IMG/VR virus record: IMGVR_UViG_3300035703_000076
Span: 4,947 to 68,946 of that record
Length of the DNA stretch: 64,000 nt
Direction: 5' to 3' (one strand)
Origin: a virus
Shown: positions 7,131 to 52,992 of the stretch, in pieces
Layout of the letters: every line of letters starts with the position of its first letter
Numbering within the stretch: position 1 is the first letter of the stretch
Translations under genes and position numbers: made by a program
Notes under the pieces: generated by a model
Told to the model about the DNA's origin: nothing
Databases searched by the model: none
What the model saw: only the letters and a program-made list of their open reading frames with translations

Positions 7131-7481
7131 TTAGACATTATCTACCTCCTTTGCCTGGGTTCGTATTTCATCAAGGCTTCTCAATATAGAATCTACTCTA
7201 TCATTTGGGAACTCCTCTCTAATTACCGAAAGCAGTAATTTTACTTCTTCGCATTTCACATAAAAATCAAATGCCAATCTTTGGTTTTCCGTAGGGTTTT
7301 GAATTTCCTTGAATCGTCGAATATTTAGGTCGATTTCGTGGATTCGAATAAGGGCTGCAACCTTTGGAATAAGTTTCGATTTGTCAAAGTATGGTTCGTT
7401 TTCAATTGCTTCAATTATCTTGGTCGCAATGAAAATAGGCGATTGGGTTTTTATATCTCGTTTAGCCATTGTTATTATCAT
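7131..7481 (-). CDS. hypothetical protein
   Basis: ORF, operon packing. Confidence 0.65.
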   Translation of the reverse strand: MIITMAKRDIKTQSPIFIATKIIEAIENEPYFDKSKLIPKVAALIRIHEIDLNIRRFKEIQNPTENQRLAFDFYVKCEEVKLLLSVIREEFPNDRVDSILRSLDEIRTQAKEVDNV

Positions 7482-7953: not shown

Positions 7954-8217
7954 AGTTTCTCTTGATTTTAGTGGTTATTTCCCAAATATTCCCAAACCTT
8001 AACTAAGGATGGCCAGGCTACGTTGACAATCAAACCTGCAACGTAAACAATTGCCATCCAAGATACGGCAAGTAATAGGAATCGGCAAATGCCGTGGGTT
8101 CGGGCTTTCATGCGAAGCAAAAATTAATGGTTGATATAATGACTAATAAGCCAATAGAAAAGATAATTGCGGCAGCAAGTAGCAGCCTTTTAAGGAGGTT
8201 AGGTTTCATTGTTTTAA

Positions 8218-29726: not shown

Positions 29727-31112
29727 ATGGCACAAGCTTTAACCCCCAACACAAACCTGATTGCGAACGGTTTGACGCTTCCTTCGTTGGATAGCATGAA
29801 ACTCGCCGCAGACATTTCAGGTCAATATTGCGAATTTATGAAAGTAATTTGGATGCTCAACTATGACCGTCCAATGGAAGAAATGAGTATTTCCACAGTT
29901 GATGGTAAACGTACAACTACAATTCTTCCTGACACAATCCGTACTGCTACCTTGGCTGCAAATGCAATTCCTCTTGGTGGTGGACAATTTCAAGTAACCT
30001 TTACAGACCCTAACTACTCTTTGTTCCGTGTTGACGACATCATCCGTGATACCTACGCCAACAAATCGGCTCGTGTGGTTAGCTTTGTACCAGGTTCGGC
30101 TATCATTACTGCTGCTGATGCAACAGGTATTAACGTAGCTTCTCAATTCCTTGCAGGACGCAACGTAACTTGTTTAGATGGTGTTCAATCTCCAAACCTT
30201 TACAGTTCTTCTCCTGATGGAATCTACAACGACCCAAGCCAACAATTCAACTACGCTAACATCGTTCGTGAAGGAGCGCAAATTAGCCGTCGTAATGGAG
30301 TTGATTCCACAATGGTTCAATTCAAAGGTAAAGGTTGGTACTTTGCTTATGAGCAACAAATGGTACAACGTATCTTCCGTGGTCTTTCTTTCCGTTTCTT
30401 GTTTGGCGACCGTTTCTCTGATGGTACTCGTAACTACAATGGCGGATTGGATTGGTTAATTCCAAACCGTGGTGGTTCAGTTTTCTCTTTGCCAACTCCA
30501 TTTAGCTTGACTGACATCAACGATTGGATTCAAAAAATCATCATTTCAAACGCTACTCCAACTTTGGATATTTGGGCTTTCTGCGGAACACAATTTATGT
30601 TGAGATTTCAACAACTTGCTACCGCTAACGCCCAATACATTACCAACCTTGGCCCACGTGCGGAACTTAACGGTAAATCATTGGTTAACTACAACGTGAT
30701 GACTTATAGCATTATGGGTGTAAACGTAACCTTTATGCGTCTACCTGTTCTTGACTACGCTAAAGCGTTCCCTGATGTATCAGTAAACGGTGGTTTGAAA
30801 TCTTCTTGGACTTGTTATATGATGAACCTTGCCCCAATCCCAGGTGTGGGTGGTGGAATGTTGCCAGCTCTTGAGTTCTTCTACTTTGGCGCACAACCTG
30901 TATTCTATGGTTATGTTGCAGGAACAATCAAAGATTGGAACGGAGTAGCAGGCGGCTCAATGGGTTCAGTAAACGCCCTTGCAGGTGACGTGAATCTTGC
31001 CTCTTACCTAAGCGCAACTGATAAAGACGGTATTTCTGCCTATATCGGTGCTGACGTGGGAATTGACGCTCGTGACACTAAAGCAATGGTTAAATTCTAC
31101 ATTAGCGCATAA
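29727..31112 (+). CDS. major capsid protein
   Basis: 461 aa; position; high-expression codon bias; FLFG.R......GGL motif; followed by a GC hairpin. Confidence 0.8.
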   Translation: MAQALTPNTNLIANGLTLPSLDSMKLAADISGQYCEFMKVIWMLNYDRPMEEMSISTVDGKRTTTILPDTIRTATLAANAIPLGGGQFQVTFTDPNYSLFRVDDIIRDTYANKSARVVSFVPGSAIITAADATGINVASQFLAGRNVTCLDGVQSPNLYSSSPDGIYNDPSQQFNYANIVREGAQISRRNGVDSTMVQFKGKGWYFAYEQQMVQRIFRGLSFRFLFGDRFSDGTRNYNGGLDWLIPNRGGSVFSLPTPFSLTDINDWIQKIIISNATPTLDIWAFCGTQFMLRFQQLATANAQYITNLGPRAELNGKSLVNYNVMTYSIMGVNVTFMRLPVLDYAKAFPDVSVNGGLKSSWTCYMMNLAPIPGVGGGMLPALEFFYFGAQPVFYGYVAGTIKDWNGVAGGSMGSVNALAGDVNLASYLSATDKDGISAYIGADVGIDARDTKAMVKFYISA

Positions 31113-41449: not shown

Positions 41450-42964
41450 ATGGCATACGTTATATCACCATACGCACAACCTGCGATACTGCCGAGAGAT
41501 AATACGGGGGTTCAACTTGTTTCTGAAATTGCCAAAGCTGGCTATGCTCGCCGTATGAAGGAAATGGAGAACAAGATGAAGTTGGAAGAAGAGGGAAGAA
41601 AGGCTTTTGATGAAGCGTATAAATATGCAAATCTTGATTTAAGCAAGGTTGACCCAATTTATCACGATGAGTTAAAGAGGCAAGCAGATGCTTTGGCTAA
41701 AGGAATGATTGAGGCTTACAAGCAAAATCCTGCATCGTTTAAATACAATACCGCCATTGCAGACGAGGCTCGGAGGCTAAGTACAATTAAAACGCAAAGG
41801 GAGGCTCAAAGTGCTGACATACAAAAGTCTATGGATGCGAGAAGGCAACTTGAAAAAGAAGGCAAGTTTGATGTAGCATTTAACGAGCTTGGGCAAGCTT
41901 ACTCGGCTTGGCAAAATGCAACAGACCCTGCTGAAAAAGCTAAAAAACAACAGGAGTTTATTGAAAGATACACTTCTGGCGATTTGAACATAGCAACGCC
42001 TAAAGTTGAAGATTATACTTGGGCGGGCAATGTGGCTAAAGAAGCTAAAGATTTAATACAAAGTCAACAAGGCAGAAAATTAGATTACACACAAAGGAAA
42101 ACATTTGAAGATGTAATAATGAATGATGAACGTAAGAAATCATCATTAGCAAAACAAATAGGATTAGACAGTTCAACACCCGAAGGCGAACAAGAACTTA
42201 GAAAAAGAATTCAAAGCTATTTGCCGTCAGGTGAAAAACCAGCTCCGCAAGGTGGGGGTTATGGATTAGGTTATGCTTCTTCCATAACAAATCCAACACC
42301 TGGCAGAGTGGATTTTGGTATGACTACGGAAAAACAAGGGGGAGGAACAATGACGGCACAATCTTCTGTTACCTCGCCCGCTCAAATTACTTTTTCTACT
42401 GCAATGCCAACAACGCTTGTTCAGCCATCAGTTTCATATGGCCTTGAAAATGGGAAAACATTAAATAACGATGCCGATTTTAAGGATAACAAGCTGTTTG
42501 AGGTCGCTTTGAGTAAAGTTGCTTTATTGCCTGTATATAAAAAGGGTGTTACAAGGAAAGGCGGGGTTGACGTTTCGGGAGAAATTGTTGACGACTTGAA
42601 TCTTAATGATGAAAGATTAAATGGCAAATATGAGTATAAGGTTTTTGCAATAGGTCAAGGAACGAAGGAAATTGGTGAAGATAGCAGAGACAAGCAATTG
42701 ATAACAAAAGATTTGTATATACCAATAAACCAAGTAAAAGACGCAGTTTGGGATAAGCTTGCTCAATCAGAAAAGCAAAGCGTTATGAAGAACATTTTTG
42801 ATATGAAGGAATTGGCGAGAGATTATAATTCTAAATTAAAAAGCCCAAGTAGCGAAAAGCCTGCTGCTGAAAAGCCGAAGGGTGAATATAAAATTACCAT
42901 GCAGTACAAGGGGGCTACTTATGGCAGAAATTCAGAAAAAGACCAATGGGTTAAAATAAAATAA
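41450..42964 (+). CDS. putative internal virion (ejection) protein
   Basis: 504 aa; position. Confidence 0.6.
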   Translation: MAYVISPYAQPAILPRDNTGVQLVSEIAKAGYARRMKEMENKMKLEEEGRKAFDEAYKYANLDLSKVDPIYHDELKRQADALAKGMIEAYKQNPASFKYNTAIADEARRLSTIKTQREAQSADIQKSMDARRQLEKEGKFDVAFNELGQAYSAWQNATDPAEKAKKQQEFIERYTSGDLNIATPKVEDYTWAGNVAKEAKDLIQSQQGRKLDYTQRKTFEDVIMNDERKKSSLAKQIGLDSSTPEGEQELRKRIQSYLPSGEKPAPQGGGYGLGYASSITNPTPGRVDFGMTTEKQGGGTMTAQSSVTSPAQITFSTAMPTTLVQPSVSYGLENGKTLNNDADFKDNKLFEVALSKVALLPVYKKGVTRKGGVDVSGEIVDDLNLNDERLNGKYEYKVFAIGQGTKEIGEDSRDKQLITKDLYIPINQVKDAVWDKLAQSEKQSVMKNIFDMKELARDYNSKLKSPSSEKPAAEKPKGEYKITMQYKGATYGRNSEKDQWVKIK

Positions 42965-45900
42965 TGGAAGATTTAAACAACCTACCCGAAACTTTACCTG
43001 CGGACTTCAAGTTTGACGAAGCGCCCGAAACGCTTCCTGCTGATTTTAAATTTGATTCCGAGGCTGAAAAAAAAAATTCTATTGGGAACGCTTTACCGAC
43101 TGGTGGCAAAGTTGGGGTATCCGCAACCCCTTCTACTGGAAATGAAGTTGCTGGTTTGCTTGGTGTTAAACCGATTAAGCCAAGTCAATACGCTGCTCCT
43201 ACCCCATTGGTTGAAAAGGCAAAAACGATTGTCGAGCCTGTTGCAAAGGGGCAAGTAATTGACGAAAAAAACAAAACTATCATTGAGCCAATTTTAATAA
43301 AAATTGGACAAGAAAAAGACCAACCATTACCCGCTTCGTTCGACAAAACGACTTTTGATAATTACAACAGAACCTTTGAGGATTACAAGCAAAAAAATAA
43401 ATGGCTTGGTGATGCTATAAAAAACAACACTTTAAATTACTATGTAAACAGCGGAGGTGCTTTAAGCGACTTGGGCAACATAGCAAGCGGAGTTTTATCT
43501 GCTCCTGCTTACAAAAAAGCGGAAGAAGAATATAAAAAAAGCCCAAGTTATGCTCAATTTGCAAAACAAATACAACAATCTAAAAACGCTTTCTTTGAAG
43601 CAAAAGCAAAAGCCGACAAAGAAACTGAAAGACAATCAGAAGCTATTGCACAATCATTAGGCGGTTGGGGTTCTTTAGTTGACAAAGTTGGCAATGCTGA
43701 TGTTGAAAAAATAAGGGAAGGTGTAGATTCTTTCCTTGAAAAAAATAAAATTGAATCAGATAGCCCAATAGCTTACAAACTTAGAAATGAATTAAAAGCC
43801 CAAGCCGAATTTAAGCAAATTGAGCCAAAGATTAATAAGGAATTTGAGGCTCAATATCAAAAACTTTATGGCACAACGCCCGAAGAAGATATTAAAAAGG
43901 AATATGGCGTAACAGTTGAAAAAGCCAAAGGTATAAAGGCGGCAAAGCAAGAACTTGAAAAGAAAAGATTATTGGAAGACAAAGCTCTTGAAGCTGAATT
44001 TAAACCCGAATACGAAAGCCTTGGTTCTTCATATAAGGCAAAGACAACGGAAATAGACAGCCAAATTGAAAACGACCCTGAACTAAATTCTTTTGCACAA
44101 CAACTTGGCCAAGAAAGGCAAAGTAGATATCAAGCAATGGTTGACAACGGGCAAATGTCTGTTGAACAGGCTAATGCAGAAATGAATAGTCCTGCGTCAA
44201 TAGAAGAGGAGAAAAAAAAGATATTGCAGAAGGTTAATGAAAAATATGGAAAGGTTTACGAAAGTGCTTTTGCTGAATATCAAAAAAGCTTAAATGAAGT
44301 TGGTTCTCGTTACAAATCTGCTTATAGGCAACAAGAAAACGCAAGGGTAGAACAAGCAAACAAAAAGATACAATCAGAAATTGAATCTTTGAAAGGACAA
44401 TTTGAAATAAGCCCTGCCTTAATTGAGAAAAGAAAGAAGGCTTATGGCGAAGCTTATACAAAAGTTTCAGAATCAGGATTGAAAGCGGAAATTGCGGCAG
44501 GCAGAACTTTGCCATTTTTGGCGCAAGCAGGAATGTCGTTATTAATGGGTCTTGGAGGTGGATTAAAGGGCGTTGGTGCTGAATTTGACAACAAAACGCT
44601 GTATGACCTTGGTGAATCGCTTGAAAGTGATTTCAAAATCAATGTAGGCGAATCTAAAGAGTTTTCCGATTGGCTTGATTCAAGCAAGTTGACAGTTGGC
44701 ACGGGTAACATTATTGGCCGTATGATTCCTGGTATTGGATTAACCGCCGCCGCTGCCGCTTTAACAAAAGATTGGGGATTAACAGCAAGGCTTGCAACAA
44801 CGGCTGTTACAAGTTTCGCTGCTGAATCTTCAGATATGGCAGGGACAATTAGGGATGAAGTTTTACAATCAACTGGCGACCCTGCAAAAGCGGATGATGC
44901 CGCAAGGGATATGTGGAGGTCGCAATTGTATCTATTCCCTTTGTATGGGATTGAGGGTGCGCCATATATTGATGAATTTTTTACTCAATTAGGAAAAAAA
45001 ATTGCGCCAAAGATTTTTGCAGAAACGGCAAAGGGTGCAAGAAAAACACTTGGACAATGGGCAAAAGAAACTGCTGTAAAAACATTAGCAGGTGGCGTTG
45101 GTGAAACTATCACAGAAATAGCCCAAGAGTTTCCTCAAAACATAAACGAAGAAGCTATTAGAAACGGAAAAGAAATTAAAGGAATTGTTGACCAAATTGA
45201 CGTTTACAATGAGGGCGCAACCCTTCCTAAATTAAAGGAAACAATTGTAACGGTATCGCCTTCTACGTTAATAATGGGTGCTACTCCTGTTTTTGTTTCT
45301 TCTGCTTACAACAAAGCAAAAAGCAGTTATTATGAAAGGAGTGTTGACAATTATTTAAACTCTGCTTCAATAAGTGCTTCTTTAGAAACAAGCCCCGAAC
45401 AATATTTGTTTAACATTAACAGAGAAAAGGGAAAGAATTTTACAGGAACGCTTTTAAATACTTTATTTACAAGTGGGAAAATAAGCGAAAGCGAGTTTGA
45501 TAGGCTTAGTGAGAAGATGGTAAATATGGAAGCCTATAATGAAGTTGTCAAAAAGGCCAAAGCAAAAGGCACTGAAATTGGTAATTTAGTCGGATACAGG
45601 CTTTATGACCAATATATCTCTGCAACTCAAGCTTACGAATCTGAAAAGGATGAACTTGCAAAAGAAGTTCTGAAAAAACAAGCAGATGAAGCAAAGGCTC
45701 AATTTGTCAATCTTTTGCAAGGTAAAGGGGCAAATATTTCTGTAATGACTTTAGGTAACGGACAGGAATACGCCTTTTTGCCTGACGAAATGATGTTTGC
45801 ATTGCAGTTTCCAAATATTAGGGAAAGTATTAAAAATGGCGACATTGGAGTGGTTGTTGGTGGTGACAAAGCAGTTGTTGGCGATTTGTTAAATGAATTA

Positions 45901-46971
45901 AATTCGTTAGAAAAAGAGCCGCAAGTTGAAGAACCCACCCAAGCTCAAGAAGTTGTTGTTGAAGAAAAACCCATACCAACAGAAGCTGTTTTAGTTGAAA
46001 GGCAAAAAGAAAAAAGGGATGCTGAAATTGAGGAAGTTCAAGCGTTGCGTGATGACTTGGGGCAAGAAGTTGAACTTATCAACGACATACCTTCTTTTAT
46101 TGACGATGTGATTGATAGGATTGACCTTGGAATGATGGTTGCGCCTGAAATGCTAAGTGATGCAGTTGGTGAACTTGACAAGCAATTTGACAAACTTCAA
46201 GAATATAAAAACGACCCATCAAGAACACACACAACTGCTCAAATTGATGCAATGATTGATGTTCTTTCTGCGGTTAAAACAGAGATTCAAGATTATCAAT
46301 TAAAACAATCAGAAAATGAACAACCAACAAAAACCGAGCCTACAACTGAGGCTGCTCCGAGCGTTGAGCCAAGCCAAACAATCGAAACAAACCAAGTAAC
46401 TCAATCACAAACCACAAATACAAACCAAAATGAACAAAAAACCAAAATTGGGGAGCGGGGAACGCTTCAAGAAAATGACCAACAAGTTGGAGAAGGAGGG
46501 CAAGTTCAAGGAATCAGCGAAGAAAATCGCGGCATCAGCGGGGATGAAAGCCTACGGGAAAGCCAAGATGCAGAAGATGGCACAGGCGGGCAAGAAGAAA
46601 ATGTAACGGAACAAGGGGGTGTAACAGCCCCCTCTCCTAAAACACAACCCAATGAAACAAAAACAGAACAAGAAAAGCCCCTGCTGGAAGGGGTACGAAA
46701 TGGTGGGAATGAAACCCAAGGCGGGCAAGAAAGTACCGAACTGCGTGCCGAAGCCCAAAACCAAGAAGAAGTAAAAGCAACCATTGCAGATGCCGTAGCA
46801 AAGTTTTATGCTATTGAAGGCAAAGGTTCTCAAAAGCGTGAGGCAGCAAAAGCGTATAGGCAAACTTTAGAAAAAATGCCAACGGTAAAAAACATTTTTG
46901 ACAATATAAAGCCTATATTTGCACAACTTGAAAGAGAAGGAATTATAACAAAATCTAAAGAATGTCCATAA
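42964..46971 (+). CDS. large ejection/internal virion protein (1335 aa)
   Basis: Coiled coils, Gly/Ala-rich membrane-like segments, E...E..QE motif, N-terminal PETLPADFKFD x2. Confidence 0.7.
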   Translation: MEDLNNLPETLPADFKFDEAPETLPADFKFDSEAEKKNSIGNALPTGGKVGVSATPSTGNEVAGLLGVKPIKPSQYAAPTPLVEKAKTIVEPVAKGQVIDEKNKTIIEPILIKIGQEKDQPLPASFDKTTFDNYNRTFEDYKQKNKWLGDAIKNNTLNYYVNSGGALSDLGNIASGVLSAPAYKKAEEEYKKSPSYAQFAKQIQQSKNAFFEAKAKADKETERQSEAIAQSLGGWGSLVDKVGNADVEKIREGVDSFLEKNKIESDSPIAYKLRNELKAQAEFKQIEPKINKEFEAQYQKLYGTTPEEDIKKEYGVTVEKAKGIKAAKQELEKKRLLEDKALEAEFKPEYESLGSSYKAKTTEIDSQIENDPELNSFAQQLGQERQSRYQAMVDNGQMSVEQANAEMNSPASIEEEKKKILQKVNEKYGKVYESAFAEYQKSLNEVGSRYKSAYRQQENARVEQANKKIQSEIESLKGQFEISPALIEKRKKAYGEAYTKVSESGLKAEIAAGRTLPFLAQAGMSLLMGLGGGLKGVGAEFDNKTLYDLGESLESDFKINVGESKEFSDWLDSSKLTVGTGNIIGRMIPGIGLTAAAAALTKDWGLTARLATTAVTSFAAESSDMAGTIRDEVLQSTGDPAKADDAARDMWRSQLYLFPLYGIEGAPYIDEFFTQLGKKIAPKIFAETAKGARKTLGQWAKETAVKTLAGGVGETITEIAQEFPQNINEEAIRNGKEIKGIVDQIDVYNEGATLPKLKETIVTVSPSTLIMGATPVFVSSAYNKAKSSYYERSVDNYLNSASISASLETSPEQYLFNINREKGKNFTGTLLNTLFTSGKISESEFDRLSEKMVNMEAYNEVVKKAKAKGTEIGNLVGYRLYDQYISATQAYESEKDELAKEVLKKQADEAKAQFVNLLQGKGANISVMTLGNGQEYAFLPDEMMFALQFPNIRESIKNGDIGVVVGGDKAVVGDLLNELNSLEKEPQVEEPTQAQEVVVEEKPIPTEAVLVERQKEKRDAEIEEVQALRDDLGQEVELINDIPSFIDDVIDRIDLGMMVAPEMLSDAVGELDKQFDKLQEYKNDPSRTHTTAQIDAMIDVLSAVKTEIQDYQLKQSENEQPTKTEPTTEAAPSVEPSQTIETNQVTQSQTTNTNQNEQKTKIGERGTLQENDQQVGEGGQVQGISEENRGISGDESLRESQDAEDGTGGQEENVTEQGGVTAPSPKTQPNETKTEQEKPLLEGVRNGGNETQGGQESTELRAEAQNQEEVKATIADAVAKFYAIEGKGSQKREAAKAYRQTLEKMPTVKNIFDNIKPIFAQLEREGIITKSKECP
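46316..46399 (+). CDS. candidate nested ORF, +1 frame (27 aa)
   Basis: MNNQQKPSLQLRLLRALSQAKQSKQTK*; A-rich upstream; same frame as the next two nested ORFs. Confidence 0.35.
   Translation: MNNQQKPSLQLRLLRALSQAKQSKQTK
46430..46606 (+). CDS. nested small basic protein, +1 frame (58 aa, KPKLGSGERF type)
   Basis: MNKKPKLGSGERFKKMTNKLEKEGKFKESAKKIAASAGMKAYGKAKMQKMAQAGKKKM*; A-rich initiation region. Confidence 0.75.
   Translation: MNKKPKLGSGERFKKMTNKLEKEGKFKESAKKIAASAGMKAYGKAKMQKMAQAGKKKM
46652..46774 (+). CDS. nested small basic protein, +1 frame (40 aa, PCWKGY...VPNCVP type)
   Basis: MKQKQNKKSPCWKGYEMVGMKPKAGKKVPNCVPKPKTKKK*. Confidence 0.8.
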   Translation: MKQKQNKKSPCWKGYEMVGMKPKAGKKVPNCVPKPKTKKK

Positions 46972-47498
46972 TGATACTCGATTCTCCAATGATGGTTATG
47001 CCTGAGTTTCCAAAAAAACTTGACGCAAAGATTGTTAGCCTTTTAATGCCACGTTTAAATGACGAGTACAAGGCTTTCTACTTCTACCGAGCCGCTTCAA
47101 ATTACTGCAAAGGTGTAGGTTACGAAAAAGCCGCAGAGTTCTTTGCAGCCGAATCTCTTGATGAACTTTCCCACGCAAAGGGTATTGAAACATACCTTGT
47201 TGATTGGAACATTGACGTTAATTTGCCTATCGTTGAAACCCCACAAATTGTTTTTAGTGGACTATTTGAGGTTCTTGTAAAGGCTTATGAACTTGAGTAC
47301 AACCTTTGGAAAGAGTACAACGATACTTCTGATGAGATTTTTGGCAAAGGCGATATTGCCACGTTTAACTTCCTTAGAACATATACGGATATACAAACCA
47401 AGTCTGTTGCTGAATACAGCGACAAGCTCAATATGCTTCAAGGGGTTAATGTGATGAGCAAGTTTGAACTTCTTACTTTAGAGAAAAAATTATTCTAA
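46962..47498 (+). CDS. ferritin-like protein (non-haem ferritin fold)
   Basis: LN.E..A...Y, FF...S.DE..HA, A...E, D..T.NFL.....Q ferroxidase-type pattern. Confidence 0.85.
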   Translation: MSIMILDSPMMVMPEFPKKLDAKIVSLLMPRLNDEYKAFYFYRAASNYCKGVGYEKAAEFFAAESLDELSHAKGIETYLVDWNIDVNLPIVETPQIVFSGLFEVLVKAYELEYNLWKEYNDTSDEIFGKGDIATFNFLRTYTDIQTKSVAEYSDKLNMLQGVNVMSKFELLTLEKKLF

Positions 47499-47499
47499 T

Positions 47500-50400
47500 A
47501 TGGCTTGCGAGGTCAAATACCAAGGGCAGACACTTTCTTTTGAAGAGTTTGCCGAAAAGTTGCATAATGGACTTTTGGACGAATTTATTGCCCAAGGTGT
47601 TGTTAAGAATGTACCAACCATAAAATCAATTCAAGATGCCGTACAAAAGCAAAGCGCAGAGGGCGTTCTTTCACGCCAACAAGGAGAAGCTGGAAAAGCA
47701 GGGGGTGAACGTCAAGGAATGGGACAAGGCAAGCAAGGGCAAGAAGCTGCCAAGCCGAGCAAAGAAGAAATAACTTCCGCAGAAGCAACGGTTGCTCTTG
47801 ATGAAGAAACCGAACTATTGCTTGAAGGACTTGCCGCAGAAAGGAGAAGGGCGGGCAAATATACAGTTGACGGAGTAACATATACAAGAAACGAAAAAGG
47901 ACAAGGCATTGTTTCGGAAGAAGGTGGGGATGTTAGGTTTACAAATGAACCTGGCGGTGGTGGCGTTGTCGTTCCTTTCAGATACAAACTTGTTGAAGCA
48001 AACACAGTTCAGCCTTCACACGAAGGAGGTTTGAGAAATCCAAACTTCTTTATACCCGAAGCGCAACCTAAAAATAGGAACGACCAAGCAAGTTTATTGG
48101 CGGAGGATGATTTTGCCAACAACCCAAGGTTTGGCGAGCTTGGACAAGATACAGGGGCGTATAAAGGTGCGCCCGTTGTAAACGAAAGGGGTGAAGTTAT
48201 TCAAGGAAACAACAGGGCTGCTGGACTTAAAAAGGGATATGCTGTTGGCAATAAAAAGTACAAGCAAGACTTAGCTGCAAATGCAGAGAAGTTTGGGTTT
48301 ACCAAAGAGCAAGTTGAAAGCATGGAAAACCCCGTGCTTGTTCGTGAAGTTATTGTAACTGATGAAAAAGCTATTGAACTTGGAAACTACGATGTAAAAG
48401 ACCTTGAAACCGCAGGAAAAAGAAGGATTGACCCTTCTGCCCTTGTTCGTAGGCTTCCTTCAAAAGTTAAAGCGAGCCTTGCTAAAGTTATTTCAGCAGG
48501 GGAAACGATTAAAGAATCTATTAAAGAAAATGCGGATGAGATTTATCAACTTATACGTCCGTATATCAATACAAGTATTGCCAACACTATAATCACAAAT
48601 GGCAAATTAAATTCTGTTGGTATTGAGGACGTTGAGGGCTTATTTACGCAGTTCTTGTTTCAGAATGGCGACCCTAACCTTCCTCAAATGTTTGAAGGTT
48701 TGTCTAATACGCAACGTGAGGGTATTAAAAAGTCTTTACCATACTTGCTAAGTGCAGGAGCAGGCAAAAGTATCATACCCGATGTTCAAGAAGCGATAAT
48801 TGCTATTTCCGATTTTATGGCAAGCGGTAGCTCTGATTTTAATGCTTGGCTTTCTCAAGGGGATATTTTTGTAGACAACAAAACGCCAAAAGATATTTAT
48901 TCTCCGCTTGCTTTAAAGATTGCAGAGATATTAAATACAGCCAAAACACAAGCCGATATAGTTGGAACTACTACAAGGTCAAAAACAGAACCAACATCTT
49001 TTGTTAAGTATAGCGAATTGACAAAAGGAACAGAAGCGGGTTTATTTGAGGAAGCTAAAGAGGGTATTTCAAAAAAAGAAGCAATAAAACAAGCATTTAA
49101 TGTAGATTACAATGAAAGAAAAACTTATTCAAATAGTCAAAGAATCGAAGAAAAGGCTTATAGAAAGCAAGAAGAAGAAAACTCAGTTAAGCAAAAATAT
49201 AAAGATGACCTTGCCAAAGGATTAGATAATTTAATTACTAAGCTCGGAGGAAAGAAAAATATAACACCAGAAGAAAGAACTTTTATAATAGAAGATTTAC
49301 GAAATATAATAAAAGGTCTTGTTGGGTTAACTTATGAGGAAATAAAAGAAATGGTTGTTCCTGCTTTGAAAAAGTTAGGATTAACTTCTCGTGAAGTTGA
49401 CGATATTTTAGTCGAAGCAACTACCGAAGAAAGAAGAAGGCCAGACTATTCAGAACCTTCTTTAGAAAGAGAAACTGAAACAAAGAAAAGTAGAACATTA
49501 GAAACGGTTGAAACTTTTTCTTCAAAAAGAATAGCGGAAAGAATTAAAAAACTTGAAAACTATTACTACAAAGTTCTTCCAAATGAAGAAGTTAAAGCTG
49601 CCGTAAATAAGATTTTTGAACTTTATTCTGTCGAAGAAATCGCTGACGATTTCCTTAACCCTGATGTAAATTCAAAAATGTATGGGCCTGTAAAAACGGT
49701 AATAGGTCTTGAACTTATGAAACGATTCAGTAAGGAAAAGAACTATGAAATGTTTAACAAGGTCGCAAATGAATATGCAGAAATAGCAAAAGAAGGGGCA
49801 AGAACAATTCAAATTATAAACATATTTGATATTGTAAAATCAATGGGAGGGATATTTGCTAAATTAAAAGCAAAGGAAATTATACAAGAAAGAAACCAAA
49901 GATTGCGCGATTTGAACAAACAGAAGATGGAGCAAATTGCTATGCAACTTAAAAATGCAAATACGCAAGCAATAGATGAGGCATTAGGCGATGAAAAGAT
50001 AAGGGAAATAGTTGGCAAGATTTTACAAAAATATGCGCCCCAAACAACAACAACTGATGAAAAACAAAAAGAGGCGAGTAAAGCAAAATCAAAAACAAAT
50101 CTTAATGAAGGTAGGATAAAAGAGCTTATTGATAAAAAGAAATTATTAAAAGAAAAAATAAAAAAAGGCGGCTATTTTACAAGCGGAGGAATTACGCCAG
50201 AGCTATTCGAGCTTGCTGCTACAAATATCGAATTAGGTACAAGAACATTTGCTGAATTTTCAAAGCAAATGACAAAGGATGTTGGTAAGGCTATTAAACC
50301 ATATTTACTTGAATTATACAAAGAAGGCAAGTCTATATTAAAAAATCAAGGACAAGACGTTTCTGATACAACAAGTAATGTTGACGCATCTTCTGAATTT

Positions 50401-52992
50401 TCTTCTATGTTTGAAGATAAGGACATAAAAACCCTTGTTGGTAAAACTATACAAGAAAATCTTGAAACTATATTACGCAAAGGACTTGGTGAATCTCAAA
50501 GAAGTAAAACAATAAAAGAAATCACCGACAAGCTTGGACTTGAGCCGTCTGACGCTGCTTCTATCGTTGATAAGATAAATTCAGAGTTTGACAAAAGGGT
50601 TAAAAATAAGCAAGAAGGCATAAAGAAAAAGCTATTAAAGGGTCTTAATAAACAAACAAGAGAGAGGAAAGAGTCTTGGGAAAAATTAGCAGAAGCGTCA
50701 AGGTCGGGAATTTTATCTGATGAAGAATTAAAGCCTTACTTAGAGAAAGCTTTTGGTATAGAAGAATTAAGCGAAAAGGACGCAAATGAAATAGAAAGGA
50801 TTGCAGATAATATAACAAAGTTTCCAGAAGGCAGCCCTTTTCAAACAAGGGAAATTTATAGGCTTGCTCAAAAATTAAACTCTTTATCTCCTTTTACTTT
50901 TTCTGAAATTATGACTTCCATTTTTTACGGAAACATACTTTCAGGGCCTAAAACCCAAGAAGGCAACTTTGTTTCAAACTTATCAAAAGCAATAGAATTA
51001 TTATCCATTGACACTATAAGAGCTATTTCAAAGGGTGATTATAGATTTTTAGGCACAGCCTTAAAGGGGTTATTAATAGGCTTGCAAGGCGAAGGTATTC
51101 CTGGTTTTAAATCTGCATTGCTTACAGGGAAAATACCAACAAGGGAAAAAATTAAAGGCTTTAGGGGTATTGAAGATTGGAATCCGACAAGTCTTGTAGG
51201 AAAAGGTTATAAGCAGTTGAAATATGTTACGAGGCTTATGGGTGGTGTTGATGCTTTATATTACGAATCAGCAAAATATAAAAGGGCTTTTCAGTTGGCT
51301 TACGATAAAGCCAAAAGAGATAATAAGGGCATGACATCTTCGGAAGCTTATCAAAAGTTTATAAACGAAATTTACAATAACGACCCTACTTTAAAAAATT
51401 TTATAGCACAAGCAGATGCAGATTATAATGAAAGGGTGAGTCAAATAAATGATGACTTGGATTTAACTGACGAGCAAAGAAAAAGTCAAATTATGGAGGC
51501 TGGTATAGATAGGGATTCACAAGTATATTATTATATATTTGGAAATCTACCCGAAGATATACAAGAAGAATCTAAAATTTACGCCAAAAGAGCAACGTAT
51601 ACACAAACGCCTGAAGGGTTTATTGGCCTTTTAGCAAGGAACTTAAATTCTTTTATACAAGGAGTTCCTTTAATGAATAGGGTTATTCCTTTTGTTAATA
51701 TTATTGGAAACGTAGCAAATGATGCTTTTAACTATGGAAACTTCGGTTTAGCACCTATTGCTCGTTCTGTGACAGAAAAGGGCTCTATAAGCGAAGCTAT
51801 TAATAGGAATCTTGAAAGGTTTGGAATAGTAACAACCAATAAGTATAAGTTTAACGAAAAAAGCCCCTTAACTGAAAATGAAAAAGCGGATTTAAGGGCA
51901 AAGGCTGTTCTTGCTTTTTCTTTAAGTGCCGCAAGTATGTTGTACTTATTGAGGCCGAAAGATGATGATGATGAAGATTATGAAACAGAAGTTTCGGGTG
52001 CAGGCCCAAGTACGAGAAAAGAAAGGGATGAACTTTTAGCAAAAGGATGGAGGCCATATTCAATAAGAATAGGAAATAATTATGTAAGCTATAAGTATAC
52101 TCCTTTTGTTTTATTATTTGCAATTGTTGGAAACATTCAAGACCAAACAAGGTATAAATCAAGTGATGATGAGCTTGAACTAAAGGTCACAAATGCTTTA
52201 TTTAAAACATACTCAAGAACTTTTTTTGATATGACCTTCTTAACAGGGTTGGCTGATTTATTTTCTGCAATAGCAAATAAAAACGATAAAGGCGTGTGGC
52301 AACAAGACCTTGGTAAGTGGGTATCTAAAAACCTAAAAGCTGCCGTTGTACCGTTTTCAAATTTTATTGAGCAATCTTATAATTACTATCTTGATTATAT
52401 GGATATGCCAATGCCAGAAACAAGAAGAAGCGAAGGTGAAAAAACATTTACTGCTAATCTTTTAAGCGGCATACCCATAATAAGCAATATGTATAATATG
52501 CCAAGAATGAATGCACTTGGCGAGCCTATAATGGTTGAAAATGAATTTTTGATTACTGAAAAGAAGGAATCAAAGGGTATATGGAAACTTTTTGAAGATA
52601 AAAAATATAGGCCAACCTATCCTTATCCAAATGAAATTGCTGTTATTGATGAAGATGGTATAAAGAATATTTCTTCTAAAGAATATTCGACCTTTATGAA
52701 AGTTCGAGGCAACTTTATAAAAAGTGTAATAAACCATAGAGAAAACAAAAGTAAACTTGAAGGCTATCCAATAAAAGATGGCAAAAAAGAGCCTTTTAAA
52801 AAAGAAATAAACGAAGTGTTTTATAACGGAAATAAATTTGCTACTCACTTTATTTTACTTCAAAGAAGAGGCGAAAAGTTAGATGAAGAAAATATAGAAA
52901 AAATTATACCTAACTATATGAAAAAGATAAAAGCGTATAAACAACCAAAAGAAGAGTCAAAAAAGATTGACTACGTAATCAAGGGTTACTAA
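47500..52992 (+). CDS. giant polyvalent/ejection protein with DdrB-associated ParB-like domain
   Basis: Y.LVEA....PSH, QP..R, GAPVV...G.VIQGN.R motif; C-terminal PF...P/G..PYS....YVSY region resembling LPD38-type tails. Confidence 0.7.
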   Translation: MACEVKYQGQTLSFEEFAEKLHNGLLDEFIAQGVVKNVPTIKSIQDAVQKQSAEGVLSRQQGEAGKAGGERQGMGQGKQGQEAAKPSKEEITSAEATVALDEETELLLEGLAAERRRAGKYTVDGVTYTRNEKGQGIVSEEGGDVRFTNEPGGGGVVVPFRYKLVEANTVQPSHEGGLRNPNFFIPEAQPKNRNDQASLLAEDDFANNPRFGELGQDTGAYKGAPVVNERGEVIQGNNRAAGLKKGYAVGNKKYKQDLAANAEKFGFTKEQVESMENPVLVREVIVTDEKAIELGNYDVKDLETAGKRRIDPSALVRRLPSKVKASLAKVISAGETIKESIKENADEIYQLIRPYINTSIANTIITNGKLNSVGIEDVEGLFTQFLFQNGDPNLPQMFEGLSNTQREGIKKSLPYLLSAGAGKSIIPDVQEAIIAISDFMASGSSDFNAWLSQGDIFVDNKTPKDIYSPLALKIAEILNTAKTQADIVGTTTRSKTEPTSFVKYSELTKGTEAGLFEEAKEGISKKEAIKQAFNVDYNERKTYSNSQRIEEKAYRKQEEENSVKQKYKDDLAKGLDNLITKLGGKKNITPEERTFIIEDLRNIIKGLVGLTYEEIKEMVVPALKKLGLTSREVDDILVEATTEERRRPDYSEPSLERETETKKSRTLETVETFSSKRIAERIKKLENYYYKVLPNEEVKAAVNKIFELYSVEEIADDFLNPDVNSKMYGPVKTVIGLELMKRFSKEKNYEMFNKVANEYAEIAKEGARTIQIINIFDIVKSMGGIFAKLKAKEIIQERNQRLRDLNKQKMEQIAMQLKNANTQAIDEALGDEKIREIVGKILQKYAPQTTTTDEKQKEASKAKSKTNLNEGRIKELIDKKKLLKEKIKKGGYFTSGGITPELFELAATNIELGTRTFAEFSKQMTKDVGKAIKPYLLELYKEGKSILKNQGQDVSDTTSNVDASSEFSSMFEDKDIKTLVGKTIQENLETILRKGLGESQRSKTIKEITDKLGLEPSDAASIVDKINSEFDKRVKNKQEGIKKKLLKGLNKQTRERKESWEKLAEASRSGILSDEELKPYLEKAFGIEELSEKDANEIERIADNITKFPEGSPFQTREIYRLAQKLNSLSPFTFSEIMTSIFYGNILSGPKTQEGNFVSNLSKAIELLSIDTIRAISKGDYRFLGTALKGLLIGLQGEGIPGFKSALLTGKIPTREKIKGFRGIEDWNPTSLVGKGYKQLKYVTRLMGGVDALYYESAKYKRAFQLAYDKAKRDNKGMTSSEAYQKFINEIYNNDPTLKNFIAQADADYNERVSQINDDLDLTDEQRKSQIMEAGIDRDSQVYYYIFGNLPEDIQEESKIYAKRATYTQTPEGFIGLLARNLNSFIQGVPLMNRVIPFVNIIGNVANDAFNYGNFGLAPIARSVTEKGSISEAINRNLERFGIVTTNKYKFNEKSPLTENEKADLRAKAVLAFSLSAASMLYLLRPKDDDDEDYETEVSGAGPSTRKERDELLAKGWRPYSIRIGNNYVSYKYTPFVLLFAIVGNIQDQTRYKSSDDELELKVTNALFKTYSRTFFDMTFLTGLADLFSAIANKNDKGVWQQDLGKWVSKNLKAAVVPFSNFIEQSYNYYLDYMDMPMPETRRSEGEKTFTANLLSGIPIISNMYNMPRMNALGEPIMVENEFLITEKKESKGIWKLFEDKKYRPTYPYPNEIAVIDEDGIKNISSKEYSTFMKVRGNFIKSVINHRENKSKLEGYPIKDGKKEPFKKEINEVFYNGNKFATHFILLQRRGEKLDEENIEKIIPNYMKKIKAYKQPKEESKKIDYVIKGY
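47636..47773 (+). CDS. nested small basic protein, +1 frame (45 aa, MP(F/Y)KSKAQ type)
   Basis: MPYKSKAQRAFFHANKEKLEKQGVNVKEWDKASKGKKLPSRAKKK*. Confidence 0.8.
   Translation: MPYKSKAQRAFFHANKEKLEKQGVNVKEWDKASKGKKLPSRAKKK

What the first reader, a model, noticed from the sequence alone, without database searches (positions are those of the whole stretch)
46316..46774. Cluster of small basic genes overprinted inside the 1335-aa ejection gene
Seen: three consecutive +1-frame ORFs, each with ATG after an A/C-rich tract and ending TAA: 46316-46399 (27 aa), 46430-46606 (MNKKPKLGSGERFKK...AASAGMKAYGKAKMQKMAQAGKKKM) and 46652-46774 (..SPCWKGYEMVGMKPKAGKKVPNCVP..). The 0 frame here is an acidic Q/E/G-rich disordered linker, and Lys is mostly AAG, which reads as Q/E in the 0 frame. 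From recall, 'KLGSG.RF' and 'CWKGY...VPNCV' are widespread stand-alone small phage proteins. Inference: real nested genes absorbed into a tolerant linker, giving basic peptides co-expressed with the acidic cargo, possibly for DNA condensation or co-packaging. Standard gene callers would miss them.
Basis: partly seen in the sequence, partly recalled or inferred. Interest (0 to 1): 0.85.

Follow-up and report, generated by a model that had tools for sequence, protein, structure and literature searches.

The report
Small phage genes nested in giant genes
Two of the three small reading frames, plus a third one in the next gene, are complete and still conserved small phage genes that lie out of frame inside giant virion-protein genes and have been silently recoded so the giant frame stays open, which is an unusual way for overlapping genes to arise.

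Summary
The three +1-frame ORFs exist as described.

**The two real genes.** The 58-aa ORF (46430-46606, KLGSGxRF family) and the 40-aa ORF (46652-46774, CWxGY..VPNCVP motif) belong to widespread small phage protein families.

**The 27-aa ORF.** It has no homologues and is not shared with relatives. It is most likely a chance ORF in a T-poor linker.

**Evidence that the nested genes are functional.**
- Substitutions among relatives that share the nested context are synonymous in the small frame and non-synonymous in the giant frame.
- Third codon positions carry almost no T: 0/58, 0/40 and 1/45, against 37% in regular genes of this phage.
- Stand-alone homologues carry 3-5 stops in the equivalent frame.
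- Starts are preceded by A-rich leaders without a Shine-Dalgarno motif, like the phage's ordinary genes.

**Spread.** 31 of 81 MPYKSxAQ hits in IMG/VR loci are nested in the same way, and a fourth nested family turned up in relatives.

Translation and function remain untested. I rate this a new variant of overlapping genes.

The parts
42964..46971 (+). Host giant ORF (1335 aa, frame 0). It is a mosaic gene whose positional homologues in relatives carry polyvalent-protein domains.
   Evidence: ORF listed. It has no Pfam or PHROG family of its own. Homologous-position genes in L001, L112, L140 and L104 carry ART-PolyVal (below cutoff), GNAT, LPD23 and a metallopeptidase domain.
46316..46399 (+). 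27-aa +1-frame ORF, most likely a chance ORF in a T-poor P/T/E/Q linker.
   Evidence: No Pfam or PHROG hit. The region is not homologous in L001. Among all fetched loci there is only one 41-nt blastn match and a tblastn hit at E=0.22.
46410..46429 (+). A/C-rich leader of the 58-aa gene, and the 5' edge of the block shared with otherwise different upstream contexts.
   Evidence: Identity with L001 starts at 46410. A 30-kb contig of run X4 replaces 45971-46410 with 912 other letters and resumes at 46410. There is no Shine-Dalgarno motif, as for the phage's regular genes.
46430..46606 (+). Nested gene 1: a 58-aa basic protein (pI 10.4) of the KLGSGxRF...AAxxGxKxYG...M family, in the +1 frame of the giant ORF.
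   Evidence: 19 of 19 candidate homologues of 53-75 aa at E<=1e-3, and all 12 invariant columns are present. 237 tblastn-confirmed places in IMG/VR. T at position 3 is 0/58. Substitution pattern. AlphaFold model is a two-helix hairpin, pLDDT 72.
46608..46637 (+). G5/C5 hairpin between the two nested genes, and the 3' edge of module 1.
   Evidence: RNA fold -16.7 kcal/mol, z = -2.1, with 8 of 200 shuffles folding as well. Identity with L001 ends at 46632. The X4 contig ends at 46632 and another starts at 46637.
46637..46651 (+). A/C-rich leader of the 40-aa gene, and the 5' edge of module 2.
   Evidence: Identity with L001 resumes at 46637 after L001's extra ~1.4-kb domain. L084 has a third, different upstream sequence that joins at the same place.
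46652..46774 (+). Nested gene 2: a 40-aa basic protein (pI 10.3) carrying the CWxGY..G.K.K..VPNCVP motif, in the +1 frame.
   Evidence: 2975 representative proteins at E<=1e-3. 8 PHROG families, best E 9e-9. All 12 invariant columns present. T at position 3 is 0/40. Substitution pattern.
46775..46971 (+). Conserved 65-aa C-terminal tail of the giant ORF, reachable only by reading frame 0 through both nested genes.
   Evidence: It is identical at protein level in WIN, L083 and L084, with only 2 changes, both synonymous. No frame-0 start codon lies directly after the nested gene.
46962..47498 (+). Ferritin-like gene between the two giant genes (context; used as the anchor to find relatives).
   Evidence: Pfam Ferritin, E 7.6e-20. 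26 viral and 45 metagenome loci found with it.
47500..52992 (+). Second host giant ORF (1830 aa), a polyvalent or internal-virion protein.
   Evidence: Pfam ddrB-ParB, E 2.1e-25, residues 158-284. PHROG hits to DarB-like antirestriction and internal virion protein.
47636..47773 (+). Nested gene 3, not in the finding: a 45-aa basic protein (pI 10.4) of the MPYKSxAQ...GVNVxEW..SKGKKLP family, in the +1 frame.
   Evidence: 181 of 192 candidate homologues at E<=1e-3. T at position 3 is 1/45. Selection tests. A-rich leader test.

Best explanation
The 58-aa and 40-aa ORFs, and the 45-aa ORF in the next gene, are real, functional small genes that pre-date their position. They belong to widespread families of small basic phage proteins that normally stand alone. 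In this phage lineage the giant modular virion (polyvalent) genes read straight through them in another frame (giant frame = small frame +2).

The DNA therefore codes twice:
- The small frame gives the conserved basic protein.
- The giant frame gives an acidic, poorly constrained linker that joins the domains on either side.

To allow this, synonymous sites of the small genes were recoded. T is almost absent at third positions, because it would create TAA, TAG or TGA in the giant frame before the many AAx, AGx and GAx codons. G is preferred, which makes Glu, Gly, Ala or Val rather than Lys or Arg in the giant frame.

Inferred, not shown: the small proteins are made by independent internal initiation at their own ATG on the late mRNA, using the same A-rich leaders without a Shine-Dalgarno motif as the phage's ordinary genes.

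Weakly inferred from context: they act with the virion or cargo proteins, for example as small nucleic-acid- or virion-associated basic proteins. I put about 30% on that specific role.
For: **1. Homology to stand-alone families.**: 19 of 19; 2975 representatives; 181 of 192. All family-invariant residues are kept.

**2. Purifying selection in the small frame while nested.**
- For the finding's own two ORFs, 20 changes were counted among WIN/L083/L112 and WIN/L083/L084. Small-frame non-synonymous changes were 7 of 20 against 0.79 expected (p=2.8e-5). Giant-frame non-synonymous changes were 18 of 20 against 0.75 expected (not significant). Small-synonymous/giant-non-synonymous against the reverse was 12:1 (p=6e-4).
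- For the MPYKSxAQ core, within 5 groups that share both flanks, the same comparison gave 42 against 7 of 65 changes (p=6e-9). Over all 31 nested sequences it was 187 against 40 of 369, like the stand-alone set at 264 against 48.

**3. The codon-position periodicity of substitutions switches frame exactly at the module.** By giant-frame position 1/2/3: upstream 8/1/18, module 15/3/6, downstream 50/33/163.

**4. Recoding.**
- T at position 3 in nested against stand-alone copies: KLGSG 0.00 against 0.26; MPYKS 0.014 against 0.18; CW 0.02 against 0.24.
- Stops in the giant-equivalent frame per copy: 0 against 4.8, 4.6 and 3.4.
- The window's own regular genes have 37% T at position 3. Rare codons GGG, GCG, CCG and AAG are used.

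**5. Start context.** A fraction at -20..-1 is 0.60 in 22 flank-unrelated nested MPYKS starts, against 0.37 elsewhere in the same giant frames. None of 10000 random draws reached the observed value. 40 of 41 regular genes inspected lack a Shine-Dalgarno motif and have A-rich leaders.

**6. The leader travels with the ORF into different contexts**.

**7. Recurrence.** 31 of 81 MPYKS hits, 3 of 84 KLGSG hits and 4 of 90 CW hits are nested in frames of 200 codons or more, always in the same frame relation. A fourth family was found by the T-free signature alone and has 308 stand-alone homologues.

**8. The giant frame must be read through.** It leads to a conserved 65-aa tail and to downstream domains.
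Against: - There is no direct evidence of translation of the small ORFs. There is no proteomics or ribosome profiling, and the host is uncultured.
- RNA-library contigs cover only parts of the region, and such libraries can hold DNA.
- The counts for the two ORFs of the finding rest on only 20 substitutions in 3+3 sequences.
- Parsimony and spanning-tree counts ignore recombination and multiple hits.
- Gene conversion from stand-alone copies could mimic selection in principle. The nested-specific T-free recoding argues against it.
- In relatives L111, L112, L140 and L150 the family-invariant Trp of the CW motif is Gln. That sub-lineage may be diverging or decaying, although its changes are still 17 small-synonymous against 5 of the reverse class.
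- Function is unknown. There is no Pfam family, no PDB homologue and no fold match.
Confidence: 0.8

Rival explanations
1. Untranslated passengers. The small-gene sequences were captured when neighbouring genes fused, or when domains were shuffled, and today they serve only as linker DNA for the giant protein. The small frame looks intact because capture was recent or because of repeated gene conversion from stand-alone copies.
For: T-poor, Lys-rich genes are nearly open in the other frame, so capture is easy. The nested and stand-alone states changed at least twice on the family tree; starred branches force at least 2 changes, and the best count is 10. The invariant Trp is lost in one nested CW sub-lineage. 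No expression data exist.
Against: - Divergence accumulated within lineages that share the nested context is strongly synonymous in the small frame.
- Start codon, stop codon and all invariant residues are kept in 31 distinct nested MPYKS sequences.
- Nested copies form their own recoded, T-free population, so they are not being overwritten by stand-alone copies.
- A-rich leaders are kept in unrelated contexts.
- The giant frame shows no amino-acid constraint there: 18 of 20 changes are non-synonymous.
Confidence: 0.1
2. Alternative isoforms by recoding. Ribosomes that start at the small ORF's ATG shift -1 into the giant frame, or ribosomes in the giant frame shift +1. The small sequences would then be optional in-frame domains of the giant protein rather than separate proteins.
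For: The same peptides occur fused in frame in other phages. MPYKS is the N-terminal domain of 462-1047-aa open frames in L168, L200, L222 and L225. The CW motif is in frame in 71 of 90 hits, and KLGSG is a C-terminal part in 13 of 84. The small frame reaches the giant frame by a -1 shift, and the ORFs end in A-rich Lys runs.
Against: Each small ORF is closed by a stop codon a few codons upstream of its ATG and by its own stop, so ribosomes in the giant frame cannot enter and stay. I saw no X XXY YYZ heptamer when reading the ORF ends, but this was not searched formally. The giant protein has its own conserved N-terminus upstream of the module.
Confidence: 0.04
3. Selfish mobile mini-cassettes. 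The leader, ORF and (for one module) hairpin units are mobile DNA that inserts into giant genes. They are tolerated because they keep the host frame open, like in-frame palindromic elements or out-of-frame homing-endonuclease genes. This concerns origin and can be true together with the best explanation.
For: Module edges coincide with homology breakpoints in at least three contexts and with contig breaks in population data. Flanks of nested MPYKS copies are unrelated in 18 singleton contexts plus 5 groups. Different families, or a different subfamily, occupy the same junction in relatives.
Against: There are no terminal inverted repeats or target-site duplications around the modules, and the cassettes encode no recombinase or endonuclease. 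The same adjacent pair MPYKS-KLGSG exists stand-alone in L213 and nested in L216, which fits fusion over resident genes at least as well. Mosaic domain shuffling of polyvalent proteins would give the same breakpoints.
Confidence: 0.2
4. Assembly or sequencing artefact. Compensating indels put in-frame domains out of frame.
For: None beyond the general possibility in metagenome assemblies.
Against: The same frame relation is seen in independent assemblies (L001/L083, L084, L109, L110, L111, L112). Contigs of two further studies cover the modules with no gaps. The small frame has stops between the ORFs, so no single indel pair would give a continuous protein.
Confidence: 0.01

Closest known systems
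Lambda-type spanin genes Rz/Rz1 (recalled from knowledge; no call)
   Same: A complete small gene lies in the +1 frame entirely inside a larger gene on the same strand, with its own start. Across phages the same two genes occur embedded, partly overlapped or separate.
   Different: Rz and Rz1 are one functionally coupled pair. Here at least four unrelated small families are embedded in giant modular virion genes at linker positions. The overlapped part of the host gene is an unconstrained linker rather than a functional domain, and no functional link between the small and giant products is known.
Classical overprinted genes of small phages and viruses, such as phiX174 E in D and B/K in A. Review PMC8227390 seen as a listing and abstract only.
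   Same: Two proteins are read from one DNA stretch in different frames on the same strand, with internal initiation and compositional bias at synonymous sites.
   Different: In overprinting the nested frame is the young, de novo one. Here the nested frame is the old one (thousands of stand-alone relatives), and the young frame is the stretch of the long ORF that reads across it. This is the reverse polarity.
Polyvalent proteins of phages and conjugative elements (Iyer et al. 2017, PMC5512222; passages read with 'find')
   Same: The host genes are giant, mosaic, late-region genes. The 1830-aa one carries the hub domain ddrB-ParB. Positional homologues carry ART-PolyVal (weak), GNAT, LPD23 and a metallopeptidase domain.
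   Different: The paper's main text has no occurrence of 'frameshift' or 'linker', and 'nested' occurs only for a hairpin fold. Genes nested in the linkers are not described there. Its supplementary files were not seen.
Out-of-frame HNH endonuclease gene inside a DNA methylase gene of Mycobacterium phage Applejack (PMC12613952; abstract in a search listing only)
   Same: A member of a pre-existing gene family sits out of frame inside another phage gene.
   Different: HNH genes are self-mobile homing elements. The small genes here encode no nuclease and show no mobile-element ends.
Pfam DUF3008 and DUF6496 small proteins (leads only)
   Same: These are short, basic, phage-associated proteins. 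The language-model search put DUF3008-bearing clusters at 0.88 for the 45-aa protein and DUF6496-bearing clusters at 0.77 for the 58-aa protein.
   Different: There is no Pfam hit at E<=1 for the 45-aa or 40-aa proteins. These scores are below the tool's 0.9 lead threshold.

Membership tests
Same-strand nested overlapping protein-coding gene pair | Two open frames over the same DNA, with the shorter one entirely inside the longer | tested here: met
   46430-46606 and 46652-46774 lie inside 42964-46971, and 47636-47773 lies inside 47500-52992. All are at +1.
Same-strand nested overlapping protein-coding gene pair | Purifying selection on the nested frame | tested here: met
   Small-frame non-synonymous changes were 7 of 20 against 0.79 expected (p=2.8e-5). 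The discordant classes were 42 against 7 within shared contexts (p=6e-9).
Same-strand nested overlapping protein-coding gene pair | Selection that keeps the host frame open and functional across the overlap | tested here: met
   0 stops in all nested copies, against 3.4-4.8 per stand-alone copy, and T at position 3 is 0.03 or less; the tail and downstream domains are conserved.
Same-strand nested overlapping protein-coding gene pair | Both products made in infected cells | not testable with these tools
   No proteomics or ribosome profiling exists. Contigs from RNA libraries cover only parts of the region and may be DNA.
KLGSGxRF small phage protein family (unnamed; alignment A3) | Invariant K-L-G-S-G-x-R-F near the N-terminus and AA..G..K.YG..KM in the second helix, in a protein of about 55-75 aa | tested here: met
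   47-76% identity to 19 proteins, with all 12 invariant columns present in the window ORF.
CWxGY..VPNCVP motif family (unnamed; alignment A5; PHROGs 9737, 4359 and others) | P-C-W-x-G-Y ... G-x-K-x-K ... V-P-N-C-V-P within about 30 residues | tested here: met
   The window ORF has all 12 invariant columns. Relatives L111, L112, L140 and L150 have Gln in place of Trp.
MPYKSxAQ small phage protein family (unnamed; alignment A4) | M-P-Y-K-S at the start, then Q..F, L..QGV.V.EW and SKG..LP, in a protein of about 45 aa | tested here: met
   67-87% identity to 23 aligned members, with the 12 invariant columns present.
Pfam Phage_Mu_F (PF04233), for the 58-aa ORF | Score at or above the gathering cutoff of 29.6 bits | tested here: not met
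   17.7 bits, E 0.006. Six in-frame longer proteins that carry the KLGSG part also have no Pfam hit.
Polyvalent protein (Iyer et al. 2017), for the 1830-aa host gene | Giant multidomain phage protein in the late region with a hub domain such as ddrB-ParB | tested here: met
   ddrB-ParB at 89.7 bits against a cutoff of 27.6. PHROG hits to DarB-like and internal virion protein.
Polyvalent protein (Iyer et al. 2017), for the 1335-aa host gene | Recognisable effector or LPD domains in the protein itself | tested here: inconclusive
   Searches give no family for the window protein; positional homologues carry ART-PolyVal (23.6 bits, below the 31.2 cutoff), GNAT, LPD23 and DUF6782.
Programmed ribosomal frameshift site | The new frame is open from the shift site, with a slippery heptamer and no independent start needed | tested here: not met
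   each small ORF is preceded by an in-frame stop within a few codons and begins with its own ATG. No heptamer was seen by eye, and there was no formal scan.
MITE- or palindromic-element-like in-frame insertion | Terminal inverted repeats and/or target-site duplication at the module ends | tested here: not met
   the only repeats are A-rich low-identity direct repeats and two short imperfect inverted pairs that do not lie at the module edges.

The most novel reading that the evidence does not exclude
Giant virion-packaged polyvalent proteins of a broad group of (mostly freshwater) phages that do not use Shine-Dalgarno motifs grow and shuffle domains by reading across resident small genes in the -1/+2 frame. 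The small genes are old, widespread basic-protein families (at least four). They survive as fully functional nested genes through genome-wide-atypical synonymous recoding (T-free, G-rich third positions). One DNA stretch then yields a basic small protein and, in the other frame, the acidic linker of the cargo protein. This would be a recurrent route to overlapping genes with reverse polarity, in which the long ORF is the overprinter. It would leave a simple sequence signature that finds hidden genes, and it might reflect a functional pairing between the small basic proteins and the giant proteins that carry them.
Probability: 0.5. Interest if true: 0.85.

Novelty: new variant of a known kind. 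Interest (0 to 1): 0.8.

Why it matters
**Annotation.** Gene callers forbid long same-strand overlaps, so these conserved genes are invisible in every genome where they are nested. That was 31 of 81 hits for one family in the loci examined here. A T-free third-position signature recovered a fourth family without prior knowledge, so a systematic scan is feasible.

**Evolution.** Textbook overprinting creates a new protein inside an old gene. Here the old gene is the short one, and the new coding sequence is the linker of a giant protein. This gives a concrete mechanism for how adjacent phage genes can fuse into polyvalent proteins without losing the small genes between them. It also provides a natural experiment on how far synonymous sites can be pushed, since the nested genes use codons that are rare in the phage's own genes.

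**Biology.** It singles out four uncharacterised, very abundant small basic phage protein families as worth functional study. It also suggests that they are linked to virion cargo proteins.

Tried and rejected
- **Pfam** gave nothing usable for the small ORFs.
- **PHROGs** gave nothing for the 58-, 45- and 27-aa ORFs.
- **PDB sequence profiles** of the three families gave no hits, apart from one chance 15-residue match to a ribosomal protein at E=0.69.
- **AlphaFold model** of the 58-aa protein is a two-helix hairpin (pLDDT 72, pTM 0.30) with 0 Foldseek matches in the PDB. It gives no functional lead.
- **ESM Atlas** returned only unnamed viral clusters. The DUF3008 and DUF6496 leads are below threshold.
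- **tblastn against cultured phages** found nothing for the 58-aa and 45-aa proteins. BLAST's low-complexity filter was on, so this is weak evidence. The 40-aa motif hit 259 records, mostly cyanophages, and every listed row was annotated as a hypothetical protein, an unnamed gp, or nothing.
- **Mobile-element ends** were not found.
- **Sigma-70 promoter and terminator scans** gave counts near the shuffled expectation and nothing at the module starts. The scan does not cover Bacteroidota-type promoters.
- **Sequencing runs.** The stretch or part of it is held by 20 runs from 17 studies. RNA-library contigs (X19, X20) cover 46770-46971, 47359-47814 and 47869-48019 only. Parts without cover, and presence in an RNA library, are not used as evidence of expression or of its absence.
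- **A single origin of the nested state** could not be resolved on a 39-column tree. The count was 10 changes against 19.7 in shuffles, and starred branches force at least 2.
- **The 27-aa ORF** was considered as a fourth gene and rejected.
- **Not used:** the second structure job, complex prediction and the genome-contig scan.
Full report
**1. What is in the window**

The window is most of a complete 68.9-kb phage record with direct terminal repeats. A 1335-codon ORF runs from 42964 to 46971.

It is 47636-47773 (45 aa), in the +1 frame of the next giant ORF (47500-52992, 1830 aa).

Composition sets the two regions apart:
- GC rises to 0.50-0.55 over 46450-46800 and 47650-47800, against roughly 0.30-0.45 around them.
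- These are the most T-poor + strand stretches of the window, with T at 0.075-0.10 against a mean of 0.30.
- Stops are therefore scarce in all + strand frames, and an open alternative frame alone means nothing.

**2. Are the peptides real families?**

- **58-aa ORF.** It found 19 called proteins of 53-75 aa (19 of 19 candidates at E<=1e-3, 49-78% identity). They share K-L-G-S-G-x-R-F and a second conserved block.
- **40-aa ORF.** It matched 2975 cluster representatives at E<=1e-3, 29 of them at E<=1e-10, and 8 PHROG families of unknown function. The roughly 30-residue CWxGY..VPNCVP motif occurs alone in 39-100-aa proteins and, often repeated, inside longer ones.
- **45-aa ORF.** It found 181 of 192 candidates at E<=1e-3, nearly all 44-70 aa and starting M-P-Y-K-S.
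- **27-aa ORF.** It has no Pfam or PHROG hit. It lies in sequence that is not homologous in the closest relative. Among all fetched loci it has only a 41-nt match and a tblastn hit at E=0.22. I treat it as a chance ORF.

None of the three real families has a Pfam model, a solved homologue or a name in the sources.

**3. Relatives and anatomy**

I used the ferritin-like gene between the two giant genes (46962-47498; Pfam Ferritin, E 8e-20) as an anchor. It fetched 26 viral and 45 metagenome loci, some of which are the same contig in both collections.

An HMM scan of the window plus these 71 loci gave 19 hits:
- The same nested modules, always with giant frame = small frame +2, are in L083 (same contig as L001), L084, L109, L110, L111 and L112.
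- A partial module is in L139.
- A nested CW module at another position is in L140 and L150.
- The other loci have none of the three families within the flanks fetched.

L001 shows the structure best. Its giant gene has a different N-terminal two-thirds. Identity with the window begins at 46410, which is 20 nt before the ATG of the 58-aa ORF. It ends at 46632, just after a G5/C5 hairpin. About 1.4 kb of extra frame-0 sequence follows, with a weak ART-PolyVal hit. Identity resumes at 46637, which is 15 nt before the ATG of the 40-aa ORF.

Other contexts join at the same edges:
- L084 joins a third, different upstream sequence at that same point.
- In population data, a 30-kb contig of run X4 replaces 45971-46410 with 912 other letters and ends at 46632.
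- Another X4 contig starts at 46637.
- A contig of X2 has unrelated sequence directly before 47636.

Each module, meaning the leader plus the ORF, is therefore a unit that recurs at domain junctions.

The host genes are mosaic polyvalent proteins. The 1830-aa one carries ddrB-ParB (E 2e-25) and PHROG hits to DarB-like and internal virion proteins. Positional homologues of the 1335-aa one carry GNAT, LPD23 and a metallopeptidase domain. The window's own 1335-aa protein has no recognisable domain, so 'ejection gene' is an inference.

**4. Which frame is selected?**

The offset makes the test simple. Small-frame position 3 is giant-frame position 1, and small-frame position 2 is giant-frame position 3.

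*The finding's own two ORFs.* I counted 20 changes along minimum spanning trees of WIN/L083/L112 (58-aa ORF) and WIN/L083/L084 (40-aa ORF).
- 15 changes fall at small-frame position 3, 4 at position 1 and 1 at position 2.
- 12 are synonymous in the small frame and non-synonymous in the giant frame. 1 is the reverse. 6 are non-synonymous in both, and 1 is synonymous in both.
- Against mutational opportunity (kappa 2), small-frame non-synonymous changes are 7 of 20 where 0.79 is expected (p=2.8e-5).
- Giant-frame non-synonymous changes are 18 of 20 where 0.75 is expected, which is not significant.

*The MPYKSxAQ family.* I took the ungapped 39-codon core of every hit whose ATG-CC start could be located.
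- I dropped duplicates, truncated copies and the 7 in-frame fusions.
- I moved L110 to 'nested', because its locus is only 1055 nt and the giant frame is open over all of it.
- This left 31 nested and 28 stand-alone distinct sequences.
- Parsimony on a FastTree tree gave 369 changes in the nested set: 109/65/195 by codon position, with 187 small-synonymous/giant-non-synonymous against 40 of the reverse class. Opportunity was 0.21 against 0.25.
- The stand-alone set gave 264 against 48, much the same.

*Shared nested contexts only.* I restricted the count to five groups (13 sequences) whose upstream and downstream flanks are both BLAST-similar, so that the nested state is inherited.
- 65 changes split 42: 7: 16 (p=6e-9).

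*Flank control.* In the window's clade, the periodicity of change by giant-frame position is 8/1/18 in the 135 nt upstream, 15/3/6 in the module, and 50/33/163 in the 600 nt downstream. The selected frame switches at the module and switches back.

**5. Recoding**

Nested copies are a distinct synonymous population.

| Family | T at position 3, nested | T at position 3, stand-alone | Stops per stand-alone copy in the giant-equivalent frame |
|---|---|---|---|
| KLGSG | 0.00 (n=4 distinct) | 0.26 (n=58) | 4.8 |
| MPYKS | 0.014 (n=30) | 0.18 (n=35) | 4.6 |
| CW | 0.02 (n=7) | 0.24 (n=17) | 3.4 |

- In-frame CW copies have T at position 3 of 0.33 (n=69).
- GC at position 3 is 0.72-0.76 in nested copies against 0.40-0.50 in stand-alone ones, while GC at positions 1 and 2 is similar or slightly lower in the nested copies.
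- No nested copy has a stop in the giant-equivalent frame.

In the window, T at position 3 is 0/58, 0/40 and 1/45, against 0.37 in nine regular genes. The nested ORFs use codons that this phage otherwise avoids: GGG, GCG, CCG, and AAG in 28 of 45 Lys codons against 35%.

G is enriched beyond what avoiding T requires (0.50 against 0.24). This turns would-be Lys and Arg codons of the giant frame into Glu and Gly. The giant-frame segments are acidic (pI 4.1-4.4) across the two ORFs of the finding. Both frames are therefore shaped by selection, which also explains the GC bump. Near-identical protein pairs, nested L216 against stand-alone L229 and nested L226 against stand-alone L214, illustrate the recoding.

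**6. Start sites**

Of 41 regular gene starts inspected, all but one lack a Shine-Dalgarno motif and have A-rich leaders. The nested ORFs look the same. This is the pattern known from Bacteroidota (my knowledge), so that is my guess for the host.

In 22 flank-unrelated nested MPYKS contexts, the A fraction at -20..-1 is 0.60, against 0.37 elsewhere in the same giant frames. None of 10000 random draws reached that value.

Together with the fact that the leader travels with the ORF (section 3), this argues for internal initiation. It remains an inference.

**7. How general is it?**

I took the top-80 IMG/VR loci per family, 240 loci in all, and scanned the + strand only.

| Family | Hits | Nested in another open frame of 200 codons or more | Stand-alone | In-frame part of a longer frame |
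|---|---|---|---|---|
| MPYKS | 81 | 31 | 43 | 7 |
| KLGSG | 84 | 3 | 68 | 13 |
| CW | 90 | 4 | 15 | 71 |

- Most of the host frames for nested MPYKS copies are 1000-2000 codons. Three of the 31 nested hits belong to the window's close relatives.
- Of the 3 nested KLGSG hits, 2 are the L001 contig and the third is L216.
- Of the 4 nested CW hits, 3 are close relatives and the fourth is L237.
- The frame relation is the same in every nested case.
- Giant-frame flanks of nested MPYKS copies are mostly unrelated: 18 singletons and 5 groups.

A blind scan covered 173 open frames of 800 codons or more in all fetched loci, duplicates included, looking for alternative-frame ATG-ORFs of 30 aa or more.
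- The three families clustered out with T at position 3 of 0.03 or less.
- A fourth family (M-I-x-K-T-S-K-G-Y-Q-V...) also appeared, in 14-15 loci. It is nested in the giant gene upstream of the ferritin gene in more distant relatives.
- Clusters of chance ORFs had T at position 3 of 0.11-0.21.
- The fourth family has 308 of 310 stand-alone candidates at E<=1e-3.

At the junction where the window has MPYKS, relative L148 has a divergent nested ORF of the same general type, and L095, L104, L086 and L122 have none.

Both states of the same gene pair exist. The adjacent pair MPYKS-KLGSG stands alone after the portal gene in L213 and is nested in a 1511-codon frame in L216. L081 has KLGSG and CW stand-alone in an array of small basic genes.

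On a poorly resolved 39-column tree, the nested and stand-alone labels need 10 changes, against 19.7 when shuffled (0 of 500 shuffles as low). Starred branches force at least 2 changes. The state has therefore changed more than once.

**8. Reading**

Shown:
- The ORFs exist, and the frames are confirmed in independent assemblies.
- In the nested state the small frame is under purifying selection.
- The giant frame is kept open and acidic by synonymous recoding.
- The arrangement recurs in many phage contigs and in four families.

Inferred:
- The small ORFs are translated by internal initiation.
- The arrangement arose by fusion over resident small genes, by shuffling at them, or both.

Unknown:
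- What the small basic proteins do. Their usual location in head and structural gene clusters, their in-frame occurrence in larger phage proteins and their nesting in virion cargo genes suggest a virion- or cargo-associated role.

**9. Literature**

Four full-text searches returned nothing that describes small conserved genes nested in giant phage proteins.

The polyvalent-protein paper (PMC5512222) was read through 'find' passages only. Its main text has no 'frameshift' or 'linker', and 'nested' occurs only for a hairpin fold. Its external supplementary files were not seen, and they might list these motifs under other names.

Overlapping genes in phages are well known: review PMC8227390 (abstract only), and Rz/Rz1 and phiX174 from my own knowledge. 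I therefore class this as a new variant of a known kind. What distinguishes it is the reversed polarity, with an old short gene and a young long-frame segment, together with the strong recoding signature and the recurrence.

Noticed in passing
window 47636-47773 (+): A third nested small gene (45 aa, MPYKSxAQ family) lies in the +1 frame of the next giant gene. It was not part of the finding. It gave the largest data set for the selection tests.
   Followed up: yes
L097, L098, L101, L104, L105, L115, L134-L136, L141, L144, L145, L147, L150 (e.g. L104:1268-1402): A fourth nested small-gene family (M-I-x-K-T-S-K-G-Y-Q-V..., 44-45 aa) lies in the giant gene upstream of the ferritin gene in more distant relatives. 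It was found only through its T-free third positions. It has 308 stand-alone homologues.
   Followed up: partly
L148:~1040-1180 (+1 frame of the giant gene downstream of the ferritin gene): A divergent nested ORF of the M-P-F-K-S-E-K-Q-R-R-F type sits at the same junction where the window has the MPYKS gene. My HMM missed it at E<=1e-4.
   Followed up: no
window 46962-47498 (+): A phage-encoded ferritin-like protein (Pfam Ferritin, E 8e-20) lies between the two giant virion-protein genes. It is conserved across about 70 related loci. This is an unusual cargo-region gene.
   Followed up: no
window 46608-46637 (+): A G5/C5 hairpin (-16.7 kcal/mol, z -2.1) without a T tract lies between the two nested genes. 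It is conserved in L001 and L112, and it coincides with homology and contig breakpoints. Its role is unknown.
   Followed up: partly
window, 41 gene starts: Almost no gene has a Shine-Dalgarno motif, and leaders are A-rich. This suggests a Bacteroidota-like host. The major capsid protein (29727-31112) weakly resembles the SU10 capsid protein (E 8e-5, below cutoff).
   Followed up: no
window 12233-13240 (-): A 335-aa protein with an LPD29 domain (large polyvalent-protein-associated domain 29, E 2e-18) stands alone on the other strand. Its Ala/Lys-rich stretch is the most A-poor spot of the + strand. It has no nested ORF.
   Followed up: partly
L081:3456-5044: A high-GC phage contig carries an array of about eight consecutive small basic genes between structural genes. 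They include stand-alone KLGSG and CW members. Such arrays may be the source pool for the nested genes.
   Followed up: no
L111, L112, L140, L150 (CW module): The Trp that is otherwise invariant in the CWxGY motif is Gln in this nested sub-lineage. Its substitutions still favour the small frame, 17 against 5.
   Followed up: partly
L001:~6673-8146: The closest relative has an extra ~1.4-kb domain exactly between the two nested genes. It has a weak ART-PolyVal hit and an H-E-x-x-H motif.
   Followed up: partly
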